This document shows, piece by piece, positions 23,590 through 48,339 of a DNA stretch of 64,000 nt. The position numbers and the translations under genes are program-made. The DNA comes from Candidatus Dormiibacterota bacterium (GTDB lineage: Bacteria; Chloroflexota; Dormibacteria; Aeolococcales; Aeolococcaceae): positions 2,368,001 through 2,432,000 of the forward strand of contig OY970355.1 of the NCBI GenBank assembly GCA_963718525.1, read 5' to 3'. The notes below the pieces were generated by a model, which ran no database searches, was not told the DNA's origin, and worked only from the letters and a program-made list of their open reading frames with translations. Each line of letters starts with the position of its first letter. Within the stretch, counting starts at the first letter, position 1.

Positions 23590-25326
23590 GTGAGGTCTCG
23601 GAACGGCGTCAGCGCGACAGCTCTGGCGCTCATCGCGGCCGTGCCGTTCGCCCTGCTGCACACCGGCGCCGCAAGGGCGGCGACGACCCGGGAGGGGATC
23701 GACGTCAGCGCATACCAGGGGTCGATCGCCTGGCACTCGGTGGCGGCCGCCGGGATCTCGTTCGCGTATATCCGTGCGGCGGATGGCGCCGGTTCCCCGG
23801 ACGGGCAGTTCGCGATCAACTGGCGAGGAGCGTCCGCAGCGGGGGTGACCCCCGGGGCATATCTGTTCTACGAGCCGAATCAGAGCGCCGTCGCTCAAGC
23901 CGACCTCCTCATCTCCCAGCTGCGAGCGGTGGGGTTCACCCACGGAGACCTTGTCCCGACGATCGACGTCGAGACCACTGACGGCGAACCCCAGGCGGTG
24001 GTGGTCGCCAACCTCCGCATCATTGTCAACACGGTCAGCGCCGCGATCGGATCGCTGCCCGCCATCTACTGCTCGCCGGCGTGGTGGAGCGGGAACATCA
24101 GCTCGGCGGCCTTCACGCTTGACCCGCTCTGGGTGGCCAACTGGTTCGTGAGCCAGCCGTCGGTGCCCGAGAACAACTGGGGTGGCACCGGCTGGCAGGT
24201 GTGGCAGTACAGCGACGCGGGCAGCGTCCCCGGGATTGCGGGCAGCGTCGACCTCGACCAGGGCGGTGTCCGATCGCTGCCGTATTACGGCTTCCCGGAT
24301 CCTCTTGCGCTGCCGCAGGCGGCAAATGTTGCAGGCAACCCCCAGGCCGTGTCGGATCAGCCGGGGGACGTCAACGTGCTCTGGCGGGGGAGCAACAACC
24401 ACGTCTGGAGCCTCGCATTCCGCAACGGGACGTGGGGGTTGGGATCGACCGACATCAGCGCGGCTGGTGGGACGGCGGCGACGCTCGTCTCGGATCCATC
24501 GGTCGTCTCCTCCGGTCCCGGACAGATTGACGCGTTCTGGGAAGGGGAGGACCACAACCTCTGGTACTCGGCCTTTGCCGGGGGGTGGTTTGGCGACGGA
24601 ACCTGGTCGGCACCCGTGTCGCTCGGGGTCGGACCGCTCGGATCGCAACCCCGGGCCGTGTCGCCCGCCCGCGGCTTCGTCGACGTCTTCTGGAAGGGCT
24701 CCGACGGTGGCCTCTGGGTCGACCGTTACAACGTGGGCTGGAGCGGCGCCATGCCACTGAACACGGGGGCCATCGGCGGGAACCCGGTGGTCGCCAGCGC
24801 CGGCCAGGGATCGGAGACGGTCTTCTGGCGCGACGCGTTCGGTGACCTGTGGTCCGACACCGGCGCCGCGTCGGGGTGGTGGGGTGCCCAGCGCCTGACG
24901 TCCAGCCCGCTGTCGGCTGATCCGTCCGTGAGTGCATCGGGCACGACCATCGACGTCTTCTGGAACAGCGCGGGTGCGCTGTGGCACGGCTCGCTCAACG
25001 GTGCTGTGTGGAGCGGGGTCACCGCACTTGGCACCGAGACCGTCGCCGGCAATCCGTCGGTGGTCGACCTCGCCCCGGGGTCGGTGATCGTCAACTCGCG
25101 TGAGCCCTCGGGGCTCATGGCCTCGTCGCTGTACACGTCGGCGAGCGGCCTCGTGGGCCCGGAGGGGCTGGGGGCCACAGCATCCTCCGACCCGTCATCA
25201 GTCGTGTTCGCCGGTGGCGGCGCCATCGATGTCATCTGGCGATCCGCCACCAACACCCTGTGGGTTGCCCCGGCGTGCCCCGGGTGTGCGGCCCCGGCCA
25301 TTCCCGTCTTCAACCCGGGGGGCTGA
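23590..25326 (+). CDS. secreted GH25 muramidase with C-terminal Trp-rich beta-propeller-like repeats
   Basis: Signal peptide, GIDVSAYQG, PTIDVE, WQVWQYSD, VDLD; repeats of P..VS......DVFW.G.D..LW. Confidence 0.88.
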   Translation: MRSRNGVSATALALIAAVPFALLHTGAARAATTREGIDVSAYQGSIAWHSVAAAGISFAYIRAADGAGSPDGQFAINWRGASAAGVTPGAYLFYEPNQSAVAQADLLISQLRAVGFTHGDLVPTIDVETTDGEPQAVVVANLRIIVNTVSAAIGSLPAIYCSPAWWSGNISSAAFTLDPLWVANWFVSQPSVPENNWGGTGWQVWQYSDAGSVPGIAGSVDLDQGGVRSLPYYGFPDPLALPQAANVAGNPQAVSDQPGDVNVLWRGSNNHVWSLAFRNGTWGLGSTDISAAGGTAATLVSDPSVVSSGPGQIDAFWEGEDHNLWYSAFAGGWFGDGTWSAPVSLGVGPLGSQPRAVSPARGFVDVFWKGSDGGLWVDRYNVGWSGAMPLNTGAIGGNPVVASAGQGSETVFWRDAFGDLWSDTGAASGWWGAQRLTSSPLSADPSVSASGTTIDVFWNSAGALWHGSLNGAVWSGVTALGTETVAGNPSVVDLAPGSVIVNSREPSGLMASSLYTSASGLVGPEGLGATASSDPSSVVFAGGGAIDVIWRSATNTLWVAPACPGCAAPAIPVFNPGG

Positions 25327-25383
25327 CGCCGGGATCCGGTCCGTCCAGAGGGAGGGAGCCGCATCCGCTTGGGCGCCTCTTAA

Positions 25384-25413
25384 AGCTCCTGATAATGCAT
25401 ATTCTCACGATCT
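25384..25413. other. candidate dif-like tyrosine-recombinase core site
   Basis: AGCTCCTGATAA-TGCATA-TTCTCACGATCT: 12-bp inverted arms (9/12 match) around a 6-bp spacer; AT-rich and intergenic. Confidence 0.6.
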
Positions 25414-25558
25414 AGAGCTGGCAGCCCACCTCAGGATCTGTGGAGACCTCTCTCCTCAGTGCGGTGATTCGTTGAAACCCGTGATGACTCGCACACGGCC
25501 CGGTAGCGCTGACGTGCGGGCGCCGTCGAGTCCAGGGAGGCGCGGCTAGGCTCGCGCC

Positions 25559-26638
25559 ATGGATTACGTGCCAGGCCGCTCCTGGAGCCTCGGGCGCATC
25601 CCGGCGCTGGATGGTCTCCGCGGGCTGGCGATCCTGCTGGTGCTGATCCTGCACCTCGGGGTGCCGTTCACCAACGGCGCCGGAGCCGCCGGTGTGACGA
25701 TCTTCTTCGTCCTCTCGGGCTTCCTGATCACCAGCCTGCTGGTCCGCGGGCTGCAGGGCAGCGGCCTCGGCTACCTCAGGACCTTCTATATCCGGCGGGT
25801 CCGACGGCTCTTCCCGGCAGTGGTTGCGCTGCTGGCAATCGTCACCTGTGTCGACCTTGTCACCGGGGATCTCGGTCATATCGCCGGACGCGTGCTCCCA
25901 GCGCTTTTCTATGTCTACAACTGGGTCTGTGTCACCACGTCGGTCGGCGGCGATCCCATCGGCCAGGCGTGGTCGCTGTCCATCGAGGAACAGTTCTACG
26001 TGCTGTGGCCGTTCGTGCTGCTCCTGGCCCTGCGTCGCGGCGGTCCGGAGCTCGCGCTGCGCGTGGCCGCGATCGGCGCGGCCGCGGCCCTTGCCGACCG
26101 CCTCGTCCTGCTTGGCATGCACGACTCGATCGCCCGGATCTATTTCGCCAGCGACACCAACGCGCTGCCGCTCATGGTTGGGTGCGCGCTCGCGTTGGCG
26201 ATCGGTCAGGGCAAGCTGCCGCGGGTTTCGCTGCTGGCGTCGGCATTCGCCGGAGTCGCGCTCCTCGGTGTCTGCGTGGACACGGCCTACGGCGCGGGTC
26301 TTGATTTCCTGCTCATCAGCCCGGTGGTCGTCACCGCGGCCAGCGCGGTGCTCATCGCCCGGATCGTGACGGCCGGGGGTGGCGCGGTCTTCACGCTGGC
26401 CCCGGCGCGGGCGCTCGGACGGGTCTCGTACTCACTCTATCTCTGGCAGACACCGGTGATCGTCTGGGGCGACGTCTGGCTCAGTGGAGCTTCGCTCGTG
26501 GTACGCGTTGTGCTGCTCGGGGGCGCTGCACTCGCCTGTGCGCTCGCCTCGTACTGGTTTGTCGAAGCGCCGATCCGACGCCTCGGCAGCCGCGCGAAGC
26601 CCGCGCCGGCGATGGCGCAACCGGCGGTCCACGCCTGA
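25559..26638 (+). CDS. acyltransferase family 3 (OafA/OatA-like) membrane O-acyltransferase
   Basis: IPALDGLRGLAI, GVTIFFVLSGFLIT, WSLSIEEQFY, SYSLYLW. Confidence 0.92.
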   Translation: MDYVPGRSWSLGRIPALDGLRGLAILLVLILHLGVPFTNGAGAAGVTIFFVLSGFLITSLLVRGLQGSGLGYLRTFYIRRVRRLFPAVVALLAIVTCVDLVTGDLGHIAGRVLPALFYVYNWVCVTTSVGGDPIGQAWSLSIEEQFYVLWPFVLLLALRRGGPELALRVAAIGAAAALADRLVLLGMHDSIARIYFASDTNALPLMVGCALALAIGQGKLPRVSLLASAFAGVALLGVCVDTAYGAGLDFLLISPVVVTAASAVLIARIVTAGGGAVFTLAPARALGRVSYSLYLWQTPVIVWGDVWLSGASLVVRVVLLGGAALACALASYWFVEAPIRRLGSRAKPAPAMAQPAVHA

Positions 26639-26696
26639 GGCGTCGGGTGCCGCGGCTGGTTCGATTGAGACGGGCTCGCTCGATAGGCTTGCCGTG

Positions 26697-27506
26697 ATGG
26701 AGAGCAACGCGCGCCTGACAAAGGCAGGAGGCCCGGCCGTCAGCGCCTTCCTGGCGACGGCATCGGCGGCGTGGCGGAGCGCGCTGGGTCGGAACCTCAG
26801 CGGGGTCTACGTCTCCGGGTCGCTGTCGACCGGCGCCTTCAACCTGCGGACCAGCGACATCGACGTGCTCGTGACGACGCGCGCGCAGACCGACGCCGCC
26901 GCCAACGAGCGCATCGCCGAGCTCCACCTCGCGATGCTCGGCTGGGGCGGTGGGCGCTGGGCCGAACGGCTGGAGGTGAGCTTCGTACCGGCGAGGGCAC
27001 TGCGAGCGCCCGGTGTCCCTGAGCTCGCGGTTCTGGAGCTGCACCCGGACGAAGGCTTCAACGTCAAGCATCTTGGCGCGGACTTCCTGATCCAGAAACG
27101 GATGCTCCGCGAGTACGGCATCACGCTCATCGGGCCGAAGATCGCCAGGATCGTCGCCCCGGTGACCGCGGGTGAGCTTCGCGAGGCTGTCATTGGGAAC
27201 CTGCGCGAGTGGTGGAGGCCGCAACTCGAATTTCCAGGGCAGTTCCTCAATCGCGGCTACCAGGCGTACGCCGTGCTGACGATGTGCCGGGCGCTCTGCC
27301 TTCTGACGACCGGTGACCTGGTGACCAAGCCGGAGGCCGCCGCCTGGGCCCTGCGCGGCCCATATCTCGACGTCTGGCACCCGCTGATCGAATCCGCGAT
27401 CGCCTACCCCGGCGGGGCGCAACCGGACGAGCGGCGCGCAACTCTCGATTTCATCCGCTTCGCGCTCGATGAGGCCGGTATCGGTCACGAGGCTCCAAGC
27501 TCCTGA
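26697..27506 (+). CDS. nucleotidyltransferase, aminoglycoside adenylyltransferase (ANT/AadA)-like
   Basis: GVYVSGS...SDIDVLV pol-beta motif; C-terminal YAVLTMCRAL...VTKPEAAAWA. Confidence 0.78.
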   Translation: MESNARLTKAGGPAVSAFLATASAAWRSALGRNLSGVYVSGSLSTGAFNLRTSDIDVLVTTRAQTDAAANERIAELHLAMLGWGGGRWAERLEVSFVPARALRAPGVPELAVLELHPDEGFNVKHLGADFLIQKRMLREYGITLIGPKIARIVAPVTAGELREAVIGNLREWWRPQLEFPGQFLNRGYQAYAVLTMCRALCLLTTGDLVTKPEAAAWALRGPYLDVWHPLIESAIAYPGGAQPDERRATLDFIRFALDEAGIGHEAPSS

Positions 27507-27518
27507 TAATACGGGGGC

Positions 27519-28568
27519 ATGGCTGCTCGCGTCCGCCCCACCCGGCGTCCAACCGCGCCCCATGCACGCCGCGGTCCGGCATGGGCGTCGAACGTCCCCG
27601 GGCCGCGCAACTCACTGCCCGACCAGGTCGAACAGTTCCTTGACTGGCTTCGCGTGCAGGGCAACCGGCCGTCGACCACCGTCCGGGCATATCGCCAGGA
27701 TCTCGCCAAGTTCGTCGCATATCTGCGCACGCGTCCGCGGGGCGACGTCCTGCTGGCCGGGGTGGATCGACCGCTCCTGCGCCGCTACCAGATCGAGCTG
27801 GCTGATGTGCTGCCGAACCCGCGGTCCCGCGCGCGGGCGCTCGTTGCGTTGCGCCGTTTTCTCGGCTATGCGTATGACGAAGGCTGGGTCACGGCGGAGT
27901 TGAGCCGCCAGGTGACGGTGCCACGCTACGTGGTGGGCGATCCGCATCCGGTGCCCACCGACCACGTGCCACGCCTGCTCGCCGCCCTCCCCAGGGAGAC
28001 CTTGCGCGACCGCCGTGACCGTGCGCTCATCCACCTGCTCTTGAGCACCGGCTGCCGGATCGCCGAAGCCTGTGGCCTCGACCGCGGCGACATCCATCGC
28101 GAGGGCTTCCGAGTTCTCGGCAAAGGTGGCAAATACAGAACTGTGTACTGCACGGATGATGCGTTCGCCGCCGTTGACGATTATCTCAAGATGCGCGGCC
28201 CCGACCCCTCCCCTGCTCTGTTCATCAGCGTCGCCCGCGCCGACGTCCCCCAGGGACATGCCCTTCCCCACAACCGCCTGACCACCGATGGTGCGCGGCG
28301 GGCACTGAGCGCGCTGCGGCAGCGCATGGGTGTCGATCCGGAGATGTTCGAGCTGTTCAGCGATCTCCGCTCCCCGCATGCGGCCCGGCACACTGCCGCC
28401 ACGACGCTCCTGGAGGCGACTGACGGCGACGTCCGCCTGGTCCAGGAGGTGCTCGGGCACGCAACCCTCGAGACGCTCAAGGTCTACACCGAGATCACCG
28501 ATCGGCGCAAACGTGAGGCATACCGCCGGCTTGGTGACTACCTCCACGACGTGGCGGGCCGCGACTGA
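27519..28568 (+). CDS. XerC/XerD-like tyrosine recombinase
   Basis: N-terminal TVRAYRQDL; catalytic R (TGCRIAE), K (GKGGK), HxxR (PHAARH), LGH, Y (VYT). Confidence 0.92.
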   Translation: MAARVRPTRRPTAPHARRGPAWASNVPGPRNSLPDQVEQFLDWLRVQGNRPSTTVRAYRQDLAKFVAYLRTRPRGDVLLAGVDRPLLRRYQIELADVLPNPRSRARALVALRRFLGYAYDEGWVTAELSRQVTVPRYVVGDPHPVPTDHVPRLLAALPRETLRDRRDRALIHLLLSTGCRIAEACGLDRGDIHREGFRVLGKGGKYRTVYCTDDAFAAVDDYLKMRGPDPSPALFISVARADVPQGHALPHNRLTTDGARRALSALRQRMGVDPEMFELFSDLRSPHAARHTAATTLLEATDGDVRLVQEVLGHATLETLKVYTEITDRRKREAYRRLGDYLHDVAGRD

Positions 28569-45890: not shown

Positions 45891-48203
45891 TTATTCGTCA
45901 CCCAGGTCGGCGAGCAGCTCGTCGACCTGGAACACATCCATCAGCACATCGCGAGACTTGCTGCCCTCGAACGGACCGACGACGCCGTGCTCGGCGAGCT
46001 GGTCGATGAGGCGGGCGGCGCGCGTGTACCCCACGCTGAGCTTGCGTTGGAGCAGCGAAGCGGCCGCGCGCCCCTCGGCCGCGACGGTATGCGCGGCCTT
46101 GGCGAACAGCGGGTCTCGCTTGGAAGCGTCACGTGCCCAGGACACAGTCGCCTCGACGGTGAAGATCTCTTCCTGATAGTCGGGCTTGCCCTGCAGCTTC
46201 CAGTGACCGATCAGCGCGTCGAGCTCACGGTCGCTCACGAACGCTCCCTGCAGGCGCCGGGGCTTGCCTTCGTCGATGGGCAGATAGAGCATGTCGCCGC
46301 GGCCGAGCAGCTTCTCCGCCCCCATCTCATCGAGGATGACGCGCGAATCGACACCGCTCGAGACGGCGAACGCGACGCGGCTCGGGATGTTCGCCTTGAT
46401 GAGCCCGGTGATGATGTCCGCGGACGGACGCTGCGTGGCGACGATCAGGTGGAGGCCCACGGCGCGCGCGAGCTGAGCGATCCTGCAGATCAGGTCCTCG
46501 ATCTCCCCCGCCGCGACCATCATCAGGTCGGCGAGCTCGTCGATGACGATGACGATGTACGGCAGCGGCGCAACACCGAGGCCGGGTGCCTTCTCGTTGA
46601 ACGCGACGATGTTTCGCGCCGCGTGCGACGCGAAGAGCTTGTAGCGCTCCTCCATTTCCTTCACCGCCCAGCGCAGCGATGCCACAGCCGCCTCGGGTTC
46701 CACCACGACCGGGACGAGGAGATGGGGCAGGTCGGCGAAGTTGGACAGCTCGACCCGTTTGGGATCGATGAGGATCATCTTGAGCTGCGCAGGCGTGGCC
46801 TGCAGGAGGAAACCACCCAGCACCGCATTGATGCACACCGACTTGCCGCTGCCGGTCGCGCCCGCAATCAGCAGATGGGGCATGCGCGTCAAGTCGCCGA
46901 TCACCGGGTGGCCGCTGACATCGGCGCCGAGCGCGACGCTGAGCTTGTGGCGCCGGTCGGTGAATGCGGGGGACTCGATGGTCTCCTTCAGGCTCACCAG
47001 CTGCGCCGCCTTGTTGGGCACCTCGACACCGATGGCCGACTTGCCCGGGATGAACGGCTGGATCCGGATCGGTGCTGCCAGCGCGAGGGCGAGGTCGGTC
47101 TGGTAACCGAGGATGCGCCGAACCGGAACGCCGACAGCCGGCTGCAGCTCGTACTGCGTCACGGTCGGCCCGCTGTTGGCCCCGACGATCCGCGTCTCGA
47201 TGCCGAACGACTGCAGGGTGCTCACGATCTTGTCACCTGTGGCACGAACCTCGGCGGCGAGACGTTCTCGCTTGCCGGTGATCGTGTCCAGCAGCTCGGG
47301 GGTGGGGAGCACCCAGATCTTGTCCGGCTCGTCGTTCACCATCACGGCGTGTCCGAGGCCGACCTCGGGCACCGGCCCGATCAACGTCACCGGCGCATCA
47401 CCCGGCGTGGCCGGGACGCCTTCGAATTCTCGCGTGAATCCGTGTTCGCCCAGGTCCTCGCCGGTCGCCTGTGGTTCCTCAGGGTCGAGAAACGCCGTGA
47501 GTGGCGGAGCCGCCCTGGGCGGATCGAACGGCAGCACCATCGGGACGCCGGTGAGCTCGGTCGAGGGCTCTGGAGCCGGCGCCGGGAAGGCGCGGACGCC
47601 CGCTTCGGAACTGGTCCCCGATCGATCGCGGCGCCGACCCTCCCCTTCGGCCGCGAACCATCGAGCGAGCGCGCGGATGATCGTCCCGGTCCGCAGGTCG
47701 GTCGCGAGGATGAGACCGAGAACTGTGACGACGACCAGTGCCGCGCCCGCCCCTGCCGTGCCGAGCACTCGTCCGACGCCCGTGCCCACGCCGCGTCCCA
47801 CGGCGCCGGCGTCGGCGCCGACCATGCCGATCAGTCCGAGGAGGGCAACCATGGCGATCGCGCTGCCGAGCGCCGCCAGCGTGCCGGCGCGCCACTCCGG
47901 GGTCATGCACAGGCGCGCCCCGGTCAGGAACAACCCGGCGACGCCGATCCACGCTCCGATCCCGAAGGCGCCGAAGAGACCGTCATGGACCGGCCCGGCG
48001 ATGGCTCCCCCGCCGGGAAGGATCAGCACCGCCGCGAGGATGACGCCCGCCCCGATCGCCCCGATCCCGGTCAGCTCACGACGGAGGTCTCGATGCAGCA
48101 GTGGGGGGCGGGACGACGCCGAGACACGGGTTCGGGGACGCGATGCCGCACGCCGCGATGGCGTGCGCTTGCGCGCTGGACGGGTTGGGGCGGAGCGAGC
48201 CAT
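45891..48203 (-). CDS. ftsK: DNA translocase FtsK/SpoIIIE
   Basis: N-terminal TMs, HLLIAGATGSGKS, IDELADLMM, ATQRPS, gamma domain LQRKLSVGYTRAARLIDQL. Confidence 0.96.
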   Translation of the reverse strand: MARSAPTRPARKRTPSRRAASRPRTRVSASSRPPLLHRDLRRELTGIGAIGAGVILAAVLILPGGGAIAGPVHDGLFGAFGIGAWIGVAGLFLTGARLCMTPEWRAGTLAALGSAIAMVALLGLIGMVGADAGAVGRGVGTGVGRVLGTAGAGAALVVVTVLGLILATDLRTGTIIRALARWFAAEGEGRRRDRSGTSSEAGVRAFPAPAPEPSTELTGVPMVLPFDPPRAAPPLTAFLDPEEPQATGEDLGEHGFTREFEGVPATPGDAPVTLIGPVPEVGLGHAVMVNDEPDKIWVLPTPELLDTITGKRERLAAEVRATGDKIVSTLQSFGIETRIVGANSGPTVTQYELQPAVGVPVRRILGYQTDLALALAAPIRIQPFIPGKSAIGVEVPNKAAQLVSLKETIESPAFTDRRHKLSVALGADVSGHPVIGDLTRMPHLLIAGATGSGKSVCINAVLGGFLLQATPAQLKMILIDPKRVELSNFADLPHLLVPVVVEPEAAVASLRWAVKEMEERYKLFASHAARNIVAFNEKAPGLGVAPLPYIVIVIDELADLMMVAAGEIEDLICRIAQLARAVGLHLIVATQRPSADIITGLIKANIPSRVAFAVSSGVDSRVILDEMGAEKLLGRGDMLYLPIDEGKPRRLQGAFVSDRELDALIGHWKLQGKPDYQEEIFTVEATVSWARDASKRDPLFAKAAHTVAAEGRAAASLLQRKLSVGYTRAARLIDQLAEHGVVGPFEGSKSRDVLMDVFQVDELLADLGDE

Positions 48204-48339
48204 GTGGTGAACTCGATGTGGACGTGTGGAAGACGGGCTACCGAGGCCCCTGGATCGGGCCCGATGCTATCAGCAAATCGGCCCTCGCAAATGCGGGATC
48301 AGGTTGTGGGGCGGGCCGGCCGAACCGGCGGTGCTTGGC

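What the first reader, a model, noticed from the sequence alone, without database searches (positions are those of the whole stretch)
25384..28568. Candidate single-recombinase chromosome dimer resolution module: symmetric dif-like site plus a Xer-like gene carrying a copy of the arm upstream
Seen: the intergenic AT-rich site AGCTCCTGATAA-TGCATA-TTCTCACGATCT has inverted 12-bp arms (9/12) around a 6-bp spacer. Its centre ATAATGCATATT differs at one position from the E. coli dif centre as I recall it (ATAATGTATATT). The right arm lacks the usual XerD TTATGT and instead mirrors the left arm. The left arm recurs exactly at 27497-27510, 8 bp before the ATG of an intact tyrosine recombinase, overlapping a -10-like GATAAT. 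Known: XerS/difSL and XerH/difH are single-recombinase systems, and difSL lies next to xerS. Inference: a possibly undescribed single-Xer/dif pair in which the recombinase autoregulates through a half-site.
Basis: partly seen in the sequence, partly recalled or inferred. Interest (0 to 1): 0.82.

Follow-up and report, generated by a model that had tools for sequence, protein, structure and literature searches.

The report
Single-Xer dif module of Dormibacteria
A strongly conserved 30-base site and the recombinase gene just downstream are very probably the machinery that unlinks joined sister chromosomes in an uncultured class of soil bacteria, using one recombinase instead of the usual two.

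Summary
The 30-mer at 25384-25413 has an 11-6-11 dif layout and occurs once in the 3.34-Mb genome. Its left arm recurs exactly at 27497-27510, just before the ATG of a complete 349-aa tyrosine recombinase.

The organism belongs to Candidatus Dormibacterota, which GTDB treats as class Dormibacteria of Chloroflexota.

- Conservation: 51 of 62 related loci carry the site, always 0-2 kb upstream of the orthologous gene. It is an invariant island between flanks that differ in every genome.
- One recombinase: none of 61 class genomes has a recombinase above the XerC or XerD model cut-offs. This gene is the one conserved Xer-like gene. The next-best recombinase is patchy and multicopy.
- Position: the site lies 43% of the genome from dnaA, 3.6 kb from the gene-orientation switch and 57 kb from the GC-skew maximum.
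- Promoter: a Xer-binding arm always overlaps the core promoter of an apparently leaderless xer gene, either as the half-site or as dif itself. This fits autoregulation but is untested.

No biochemistry or recombination product was seen. My literature searches found no description. The scan had already reached the same reading on another Dormibacterota genome (e1-1522765). Verdict: a new variant of a known kind.

The parts
25384..25413 (+). dif-like recombination site. Left arm 25384-25395 (AGCTCCTGATAA), 6-bp central region 25396-25401 (TGCATA), right arm 25402-25413 (TTCTCACGATCT). The conserved block extends to about 25381-25416.
   Evidence: Sequence read. Unique in the genome. Found at 0-2 mismatches in 39 of 62 related loci and as recognisable variants in 12 more. 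Invariant island between unique flanks in 50 rows. Contigs of other strains break off exactly at 25383 and 25416.
25559..26638 (+). Acyltransferase-3 family gene in the variable slot just right of dif. It is cargo, not part of the mechanism.
   Evidence: PF01757 E 1.9e-26. No counterpart in any of the 62 related loci. There the slot holds a roughly 300-aa GNAT-like gene (20 loci) or nothing.
26697..27506 (+). ANT/AadA-like nucleotidyltransferase gene, syntenic upstream of xer in the close relatives. Its stop codon lies inside the half-site.
   Evidence: PF13427 E 1.6e-09, with NCBIfam aminoglycoside-nucleotidyltransferase models far below their cut-offs. Synteny at 54-79% identity.
27497..27510 (+). 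Half-site: an exact copy of the dif left arm (AAGCTCCTGATAAT) containing a -10-like GATAAT. Proposed Xer operator on the xer promoter.
   Evidence: Of 59 usable related loci, the 14-mer is present in 42, the 11-mer in 45 and the 9-mer in 48. It lies 6-9 nt (34 of 48 at 7 nt) before the start codon. It is kept where the upstream sequence is unrelated, and where the upstream ORF stops earlier.
27519..28568 (+). xer: the single Xer-type tyrosine recombinase (349 aa). It has a roughly 35-aa Arg/Pro-rich N-terminal extension, a SAM-like core-binding domain and a catalytic domain.
   Evidence: Pfam and NCBIfam. Best PDB match E. coli XerD 1A0P, E 6.4e-26, with catalytic residues aligned. 62 related loci at 62-93% identity in conserved synteny.
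45894..48266 (-). ftsK-like DNA translocase gene (open frame 791 aa) with a C-terminal gamma domain at 45939-46121. Inferred activator and guide of Xer.
   Evidence: PF09397 88.9 bits in the own genome. A homologue lies 18-25 kb from xer in all 5 genomes searched. Gamma-domain translation. Its role here is inferred, not shown.

Best explanation
Window 25384-28568 holds a self-contained chromosome dimer resolution module of the Xer/dif type that uses one recombinase.

Shown:
- A unique, strongly conserved 11-6-11 site lies 0-2 kb upstream of the only conserved Xer-like tyrosine recombinase of this lineage.
- The module sits at the gene-orientation switch, near the GC-skew maximum and roughly opposite dnaA.
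- The recombinase has all the catalytic residues.
- An FtsK with a gamma domain is encoded 20 kb away.

Inferred by analogy with XerCD, XerS and XerH:
- Two Xer protomers bind the two unequal arms (inner CTGATAA and, in reverse complement, GTGAGAA).
- Two dif sites on a dimer are brought together by septal FtsK.
- The tetramer exchanges strands across the 6-bp centre TGCATA and returns monomers.

Inferred from comparative anatomy, at about 50%:
- xer is transcribed without a leader from a -10 element 6-8 nt before its start codon.
- A Xer-binding arm always overlaps that promoter. It is either a separate left-arm copy that contains the -10 (as here) or the dif site itself where dif abuts the gene.
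- Xer would therefore repress its own synthesis.
For: Site reality and uniqueness.

Conservation:
- The 30-mer has 0-2 mismatches in 39 of 62 related loci. There are variants with conserved arms and changed centres (TGTAGA, TGAAGA, TGTCTG) in 10 more, a 7-bp-spacer form in L045, and a copy at the contig start in L022.
- All 50 aligned rows have different flanks around an invariant block.
- The 20-mer core occurs in 47 stretches of 185,579 species genomes, once per stretch. All titles name Dormibacterota or sit on contigs carrying this xer.
- It occurs in 40 metagenome stretches. In 17 of the 17 with at least 2.6 kb downstream, xer lies downstream on the same strand.

Chromosomal core gene, not mobile: the order GH25-dif-(slot)-NTase-xer-NUDIX-next gene is conserved, and xer is more conserved than its neighbours.

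Single recombinase:
- Own genome.
- 0 of 61 class genomes exceed the XerC or XerD cut-offs, usually with one top hit per genome.
- 13 of 41 genomes of the wider phylum do have canonical XerD-type hits, several of them two.
- The second-best recombinase matches in only 15 of 31 family genomes at 28-86% identity, with up to 9 copies.

Terminus:
- dnaA at 958,729 coincides with the detrended skew minimum.
- The site is at 43.0% of the genome from dnaA.
- The cumulative gene-orientation maximum is at 2,397,022, against the site at 2,393,384.
- The GC-skew maximum is at about 2.45 Mb.
- The same orientation switch appears in G001, 5.5 kb from the site (87+/69- left, 26+/108- right), and in G003, 7 kb from the site (82+/67- left, 32+/103- right).

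FtsK gamma domain present.

Promoter overlap:
- Half-site statistics.
- Conservation across unrelated upstream contexts.
- Adjacent arrangement in L223, L249 and L132/L241: dif right arm, 6-7 nt, TAnnAT, 6-7 nt, ATG.
Against: - No binding, cleavage or recombination was observed.
- No natural recombination product was seen. There were no tandem sites or dif-mimicking elements in 47 genome and 40 metagenome stretches, and no match in viral contigs.
- The GC-skew maximum is 57 kb from the site here and about 119 kb away in G001. In G003 the skew does not peak at the site at all, with its minimum 25 kb to the right.
- The site is 43%, not 50%, of the genome from dnaA.
- No strongly polar KOPS-like word was found. 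The best 8-mer scored 55:15 with z 4.8, which is marginal for about 65,000 words.
- With my patterns the site was not found near the orthologous gene in G078 (same family), in families f3 and f24, or in L046, L048, L053 and L061, which have 4 kb of upstream sequence.
- The promoter scan found no -35/-10 pair. The leaderless promoter rests on a -10-like hexamer and its fixed spacing only.
- No RNA data were available.
Confidence: 0.78

Rival explanations
1. The two 14-bp direct repeats are the attachment-site ends of a small mobile cassette (acyltransferase plus nucleotidyltransferase). The recombinase would be its integrase, in the manner of an integron or an integrative element.
For: An exact 14-bp direct repeat brackets two accessory-looking genes, one of them ANT/AadA-like. 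The gene content just right of the site varies among relatives: acyltransferase here, a GNAT-like gene in 20 loci, nothing in others.
Against: - The recombinase, the site and the downstream genes keep their order in 62 loci spanning 62-93% identity, and the recombinase is the best-conserved gene of the block.
- The site occurs once per genome.
- The second repeat is only a half-site with no right arm.
- The half-site is conserved where the genes between are absent or different.
- No contig joins the two repeats in the 4 metagenome runs laid.
- Integron-integrase models score 42.6 and 27.6 bits against cut-offs of 265 and 435.
Confidence: 0.04
2. The palindromic site and the half-site are operators of an ordinary transcription factor that controls the downstream operon. 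The recombinase would be an unrelated neighbour.
For: Both copies lie upstream of same-strand genes and contain a -10-like GATAAT. The half-site sits on the xer promoter.
Against: - The layout is that of dif: 11-bp arms ending in ATAA/TT around a 6-bp centre, one base away from the E. coli dif centre.
- Arms are conserved while the centre changes between lineages. That is typical of a recombination site, not of an operator.
- There is one full copy per genome, at the orientation switch.
- The site stays linked to xer whatever lies between them.
- No regulator gene is conserved in the block.
Confidence: 0.06
3. It is a dif site, but a second recombinase that I failed to recognise acts on the divergent right arm, making a cryptic two-recombinase system.
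For: The two arms differ consistently in the main clade (inner CTGATAA against GTGAGAA or ATGAGAA). The genome encodes 7 other tyrosine-recombinase-like frames.
Against: - None of the others is Xer-like above 107 bits, and the best of them is patchy and multicopy in relatives.
- Many class genomes show a single hit at E <= 1e-20.
- Some lineages have nearly symmetric arms (L049, L055).
- According to the abstracts and review passages I read, XerS and XerH each act alone on unequal arms.
Confidence: 0.06

Closest known systems
XerS/difSL of streptococci and lactococci (PMC1914069 abstract in search listing; PMC2965235 abstract; review PMC5357621 passages)
   Same: One recombinase. The gene and its site form one module. 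The two arms are unequal. FtsK with a gamma domain is available in the cell.
   Different: The XerS model scores only 70.7 bits against a cut-off of 267. The review describes difSL as 31 bp with an 11-bp centre, whereas this site has a 6-bp centre. This protein is nearer to the XerC/XerD models. In most genomes the site here is separated from the gene by 1-2 kb, and a half-site copy remains at the promoter.
XerCD/dif of E. coli and most bacteria, including other Chloroflexota
   Same: 11-6-11 site with an ATAA-TGnATA-TT core. One copy in the terminus region. The best solved relative is XerD 1A0P. The best family models are XerC and XerD. An FtsK gamma domain is present.
   Different: Only one recombinase. 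Scores are about half the XerC and XerD cut-offs. The right arm lacks the XerD-arm motif. In a quick tree the Dormibacteria proteins fall outside the canonical Chloroflexota XerC/XerD group (SH-aLRT 94, with a long-branch warning).
XerH/difH of Helicobacter and Campylobacter (review PMC5357621 passages; PMC5241119 abstract in search listing)
   Same: A single recombinase binding two unequal arms of one site.
   Different: No XerH model was available to score. According to the review, the difH arms are A/T-rich and unlike these.
XerL/dif of Legionellales (PMC9765430, abstract and section 7 read)
   Same: A lineage-specific single-recombinase dif system found by genome analysis in a group thought to lack Xer.
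   Different: That paper reports XerL has no detectable sequence homology to XerC/D/S/H, whereas this protein is plainly Xer-like. XerL/dif was revealed by a mobile element that copies dif. No such element was found here.
XerA/dif of archaea
   Same: A single Xer-type recombinase. The PDB entries 4A8E and 5HXY are the next-best solved matches.
   Different: The XerA model scores 121.6 bits against a cut-off of 220. The host is bacterial and has FtsK.

Membership tests
Tyrosine recombinase superfamily, Xer-like architecture | Catalytic domain with R-K-H-R-H-Y plus an N-terminal SAM-like core-binding domain | tested here: met
   PF00589 91.9 bits and PF02899 39.2 bits, both over their cut-offs. 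R180, K205, H287, R290, H314 and Y323 aligned to XerD 1A0P.
XerC (TIGR02224 equivalog) | Score at or above the curated cut-off of 335.15 bits | tested here: not met
   174.8 bits. 0 of 61 class genomes are over the cut-off.
XerD (TIGR02225 equivalog) | Score at or above the curated cut-off of 329.6 bits | tested here: not met
   154.4 bits. 0 of 61 class genomes are over the cut-off.
XerS (NF003462) and XerA (NF040815) | Score at or above the curated cut-offs of 267 and 220 bits | tested here: not met
   70.7 and 121.6 bits.
Integron integrase (TIGR02249, NF011946) | Score at or above the cut-offs of 265 and 435 bits | tested here: not met
   42.6 and 27.6 bits, on a short C-terminal stretch only.
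dif-type chromosome dimer resolution site | Two roughly 11-bp arms of partial dyad symmetry around a 6-8 bp centre | tested here: met
   Arms match 9 of 12 around a 6-bp centre. The layout is as the review describes for E. coli dif.
dif-type chromosome dimer resolution site | One copy per chromosome | tested here: met
   Unique in the 3.34-Mb genome. One copy per stretch in 47 genome and 40 metagenome stretches.
dif-type chromosome dimer resolution site | Located at the replication terminus | tested here: inconclusive
   The gene-orientation switch is 3.6 kb from the site (5.5 and 7 kb in G001 and G003). However, the GC-skew maximum is 57-119 kb away, G003 has no skew peak at the site, and the site is 43% of the genome from dnaA.
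dif-type chromosome dimer resolution site | Conserved among relatives, with arms more constrained than flanks | tested here: met
dif-type chromosome dimer resolution site | Recombined by the cognate Xer protein; loss causes dimer-related segregation defects | not testable with these tools
   The lineage is uncultured. It needs a heterologous or in vitro assay.
Single-recombinase Xer systems (XerS, XerH, XerL type) | No second Xer-type recombinase conserved in the lineage | tested here: met
FtsK-controlled Xer systems | FtsK with a gamma domain present, and needed for activation | tested here: inconclusive
   The gamma domain is present in 5 of 5 genomes. Dependence was not testable, and no strongly polar guide word was found.

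The most novel reading that the evidence does not exclude
In Dormibacteria the dimer-resolving recombinase measures its own level through its recombination site. A dif arm is built into the core promoter of a leaderless xer gene. Where dif abuts the gene, dif itself covers the -35/spacer region. Where other genes have come between, a separate left-arm copy forms the -10. I found no such autoregulatory logic described for any Xer system (no 'autoregulat' in review PMC5357621). In addition, the class holds two unrelated single-Xer lineages, each with its own dif sequence.
Probability: 0.4. Interest if true: 0.7.

Novelty: new variant of a known kind. Interest (0 to 1): 0.58.

Why it matters
- Dormibacteria are abundant, uncultured soil bacteria whose chromosome biology is unknown. 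This gives them a defined dimer-resolution site and enzyme, and a practical marker for the replication terminus in their genomes.
- It adds a further lineage to the few known one-recombinase Xer systems. This one derives from XerC/XerD-like stock and keeps a classical 6-bp centre, which makes it a useful comparison for how a pair of recombinases can be reduced to one.
- A short site plus a single 349-aa protein is a testable minimal recombination system.
- The arm-in-promoter arrangement offers a simple, checkable case of a recombinase regulating itself through its own target sequence.

Tried and rejected
- Canonical dif: I searched the genome for a canonical actinobacterial-type dif (recalled consensus, up to 6 mismatches) and for a XerD-arm pattern. 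There were no credible hits.
- KOPS-like words: 7- and 8-mer strand-skew analysis gave only marginal words.
- Xer-FtsK contact: complex prediction on the Xer catalytic domain with the FtsK gamma domain returned no verdict. I do not use it either way.
- Expression: no RNA holder was listed for the region.
- Excision: laying contigs of 4 DNA runs showed no joint between dif and the half-site.
- Promoter scan: no full sigma-70-type promoter between 25200 and 28800.
- RNA families: Rfam gave no match between 24000 and 30000 at E <= 1.
- Mobile elements copying the site: 0 viral contigs and no stretch with two copies. Two MAGs with the site on two contigs turned out to be strain or species mixtures, each copy lying by a xer or syntenic genes.
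- dif of families f3 and f24 and of G078: not found with AT-richness, mismatch or arm-pattern scans.
- Fur-box resemblance of GATAATG: considered by eye and dropped, because only the first 7 of 19 positions fit.
- Literature: searches 'Dormibacter'+'Xer' (8 papers, all on xeric soils), 'Dormibacter'+'tyrosine recombinase' (0), 'chromosome dimer resolution'+'Chloroflexota' (0) and 'XerD'+'dif site'+'Chloroflexi' (2, covering only Dehalococcoides with canonical dif) found no description. Supplements of PMC3025954 and PMC8138268 could not be opened. They may list predicted sites or recombinase classes that bear on novelty.
Full report
**What is in the sequence**

The site AGCTCCTGATAA-TGCATA-TTCTCACGATCT stands at window 25384-25413. 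It lies in the 232-nt gap between a GH25 lysozyme-like gene (23590-25326) and an acyltransferase-3 gene (25559-26638). The arms match 9 of 12 as an inverted repeat.

The 14-mer AAGCTCCTGATAAT, which holds the left arm, recurs exactly at 27497-27510. That is 2 matches in the window against 0.05 expected, and 0 of 100 shuffles reached 2. The whole 3,336,189-bp genome holds only these two copies, even of the 9-mer CCTGATAAT. The complete two-arm pattern with a 6-bp spacer is unique in the genome.

The second copy overlaps the stop codon of an ANT/AadA-like nucleotidyltransferase ORF (26697-27506). It ends 8 nt before the ATG (27519) of a 349-aa tyrosine recombinase. Contigs from 4 of 4 metagenome runs have one G fewer at 27513, so the usual spacing is 7 nt.

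**The recombinase**

It has the phage-integrase catalytic domain and the SAM-like N-terminal domain. Its best solved relative is E. coli XerD (1A0P, E 6.4e-26), aligned over residues 36-334. R180, K205, H287, R290, H314 and Y323 sit at the catalytic positions.

Among NCBIfam models it scores highest on XerC (174.8 bits, cut-off 335.15) and XerD (154.4 bits, cut-off 329.6). XerA scores 121.6 (cut-off 220), XerS 70.7 (cut-off 267), and the integron integrases 42.6 and 27.6. It is Xer-like but belongs to none of these curated families.

**Who carries it**

A search of one genome per species returned 62 related loci at 62-93% identity. Nearly all are titled Candidatus Dormibacterota, and a few carry other MAG labels.

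- In the close group the order is GH25, site, variable slot, nucleotidyltransferase, xer, NUDIX (opposite strand), next gene. There xer (87-93%) is more conserved than its neighbours (54-94%).
- In the more distant group the downstream half of that order is kept.

This is a chromosomal core gene, not a mobile integrase.

**The site is under strong selection**

- The 30-mer has 0 mismatches in 28 loci, 1 in 10 and 2 in 1, always on the recombinase strand and 0.9-2.7 kb upstream.
- Ten further loci carry variants with the inner arms kept and the centre or outer arm changed. Examples are AACTACTGATAA-TGAAGA-TTCTCATGATCT, and a form with nearly symmetric arms, AACTCCTGATAA-TGTCTG-TTATCAGGAATT.
- L045 has a 7-bp spacer, and L022 holds the site at its contig start. 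The total is 51 of 62 loci.
- Of the other 11, seven have under 2.6 kb of upstream sequence. Four (L046, L048, L053, L061) have 4 kb and no site that my patterns find.
- Aligned with 25 nt on each side, all 50 rows (49 loci plus the window) have different flanks, while the block from about -3 to +33 is almost invariant.
- Contigs of other strains laid on the window break away exactly at 25383 and 25416.
- The 20-mer core occurs in 47 stretches of the species-genome collection, once in each. The new ones also lie by xer.
- It occurs in 40 metagenome stretches, again once in each. xer is seen downstream in 25. The other 15 end less than 1.93 kb after the site. All 17 with at least 2.6 kb of room have xer.

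**One recombinase**

In the own genome this gene is the best of 8 Xer-like matches, and the next scores 107/101 bits. That second gene (318 aa) matches in only 15 of 31 family genomes, at 28-86% identity and with up to 9 copies. That is the pattern of a mobile-element integrase.

In 61 genomes of the class, none exceeds the XerC or XerD cut-off. 57 have a Xer-like hit at E <= 1e-20, typically one top hit at the same locus for both models, and many have no other hit. In a sample of 41 genomes of the wider phylum (Chloroflexota in the GTDB sense), 13 have XerD-type hits over the cut-off and several have two. The pair therefore exists in sister classes and is not found in this one. These tallies include the flagged unpublished genomes G042, G070 and G086. 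Leaving them out changes no conclusion.

A quick tree of 53 proteins puts the Dormibacteria proteins in two long-stemmed groups: f1+f3+f24 and f2+f25. Both fall outside the canonical Chloroflexota XerC/XerD group (SH-aLRT 100, 100 and 94). The program warns of long-branch joins, so I draw no conclusion about descent from XerC or XerD.

**Position on the chromosome**

- dnaA lies at 958,729-960,052, which coincides with the detrended GC-skew minimum at 960 kb.
- The site (2,393,384) is 43.0% of the genome from dnaA.
- The cumulative GC-skew maximum is at about 2.45 Mb, 57 kb away.
- With crude gene calls (2,318 ORFs chosen by third-position GC), the cumulative gene-orientation curve peaks at 2,397,022, inside the module. 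The change from mostly + to mostly - genes is visible directly after xer.
- In 400-kb stretches centred on the site in two other genomes, the orientation peak is 5.5 kb from the site (G001: 87+/69- left, 26+/108- right) and 7 kb from it (G003: 82+/67- left, 32+/103- right). In these two genomes the site lies about 42% (G001) and about 40% (G003) of the genome from dnaA (the G003 total is rounded).

Against this, the skew maximum in G001 is about 119 kb to the right of the site. In G003 the skew has no maximum at the site. No strongly polar 8-mer was found (best 55:15). I therefore rate 'terminus region' as well supported and 'exact skew switch' as not shown.

An FtsK with a gamma domain is encoded at window 45894-48266. 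A homologue lies 18-25 kb from xer in all 5 genomes searched.

**The promoter half-site**

Of 59 usable loci, the 14-mer is present before xer in 42, its 11-mer in 45 and its 9-mer in 48. The GATAAT ends 6 nt (9 loci), 7 nt (34), 8 nt (4) or 9 nt (1) before the start codon.

It is kept where the upstream ORF stops earlier, so that it is non-coding. It is also kept in the distant group, where the upstream sequence is unrelated and the dif left arm itself reads AACTAC rather than AGCTCC.

A -10-like hexamer at that fixed short distance is what a leaderless mRNA would need. The conserved AGCTCC part is not explained by a promoter, and it equals the outer dif arm.

Where dif abuts the gene (L223, L249, L132/L241) there is no separate half-site. 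Instead the order is dif right arm, 6-7 nt, TAnnAT, 6-7 nt, ATG, so dif itself covers the -35/spacer region. In both layouts a Xer-binding arm overlaps the xer core promoter.

This is the basis for proposing autorepression. It is an inference. The consensus scan finds no -35/-10 pair, and no RNA data exist for the region.

**Mechanism proposed**

Shown: the parts, their conservation, their linkage and their position.

Inferred from the Xer literature (review passages; abstracts):
- two protomers of the one recombinase bind the unequal arms;
- FtsK brings two sites of a dimer together at the septum and activates exchange;
- strands are exchanged across TGCATA.

I put the dif/Xer reading at about 0.8, single-recombinase action at about 0.85 given that reading, FtsK dependence at about 0.6, and autorepression at about 0.5.

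**Comparison and novelty**

The module works like XerS/difSL: one recombinase with the site beside the gene. The site itself looks like classical dif, with a 6-bp centre one base from that of E. coli (sequence printed in PMC3025954). The protein is closest to XerC/XerD without being either.

My searches found no description of Xer or dif in this lineage. Kono et al. 2011 predicted canonical dif only in three Dehalococcoides genomes of the phylum (passages).

The scan itself had already reached the same reading on another Dormibacterota genome (e1-1522765), and it has noted lone-Xer modules in other uncultured lineages. I saw these notes after my own tests. I class the finding as a new variant of a known kind.

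Noticed in passing
window 25414-26696 and the matching slot in L001-L060: The gene directly right of dif differs between genomes. It is an acyltransferase-3 gene here only, a roughly 300-aa GNAT-like gene in 20 related loci (with a 99-aa remnant in L014), and nothing in others. This is a replacement hotspot beside the site, with no second site copy to explain it.
   Followed up: partly
L064:62, L066:2373, L075:75, L079:4102: Families f2 and f25 of the class carry a different lone Xer (30-33% identical). They also have a different candidate site of the form AACGTCrGTAA-(7-8 nt)-TTTTGCGACGTT, 1.2-3.9 kb upstream of it. In G063 gene orientation changes from 117+/39- to 72+/68- at that site, and the GC-skew maximum is 65 kb away.
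   Followed up: partly
outside the window: G000:C1:958729-960052: dnaA matches in two adjacent frames (model positions 1-341 and 342-437) in this genome, and at the same point in G002. It is intact in G001, G003 and G004. This could be a shared frameshift or a long-read homopolymer error.
   Followed up: no
window 27513 and 26637: Contigs of other metagenome runs lack one base at each place (4 of 4 runs at 27513, 2 of 4 at 26637). These are possible homopolymer errors in this assembly, or strain differences.
   Followed up: no
G000 2.39-2.45 Mb; G001 463-582 kb; G003 1.21-1.33 Mb: In three genomes the cumulative GC skew keeps rising for 57-125 kb to the right of the site, although genes there are mostly on the minus strand. 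Skew and gene orientation therefore disagree about the terminus by that much.
   Followed up: partly
window 45894-48266: The ftsK gene keeps a distance of 18-25 kb from xer in all 5 genomes searched, including the more distant G003 and G004.
   Followed up: no
window 27519-27623: The recombinase starts with a roughly 35-residue Arg/Pro-rich extension ahead of the core-binding domain. It has no counterpart in the aligned XerD and is conserved in relatives, including those at 67-72% identity.
   Followed up: no
G095:C1:148017-156136 (L082); G098:C8:3185-4066: Some genomes of the same family carry extra Xer-like genes that score higher on the XerC/XerD models (225-241 bits) than their own lineage's xer. 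In G095 two of them lie 7 kb apart, which may indicate a mobile element.
   Followed up: no
G008 (same family, about 1.5 Mb, completeness 98): This small genome gave no Xer-like match at all in three searches.
   Followed up: no
L141 and L151: Two MAGs hold the site on two contigs. Each second copy lies beside syntenic genes or a different xer (77% identical), so the bins probably mix strains or species and do not hold a second dif.
   Followed up: yes
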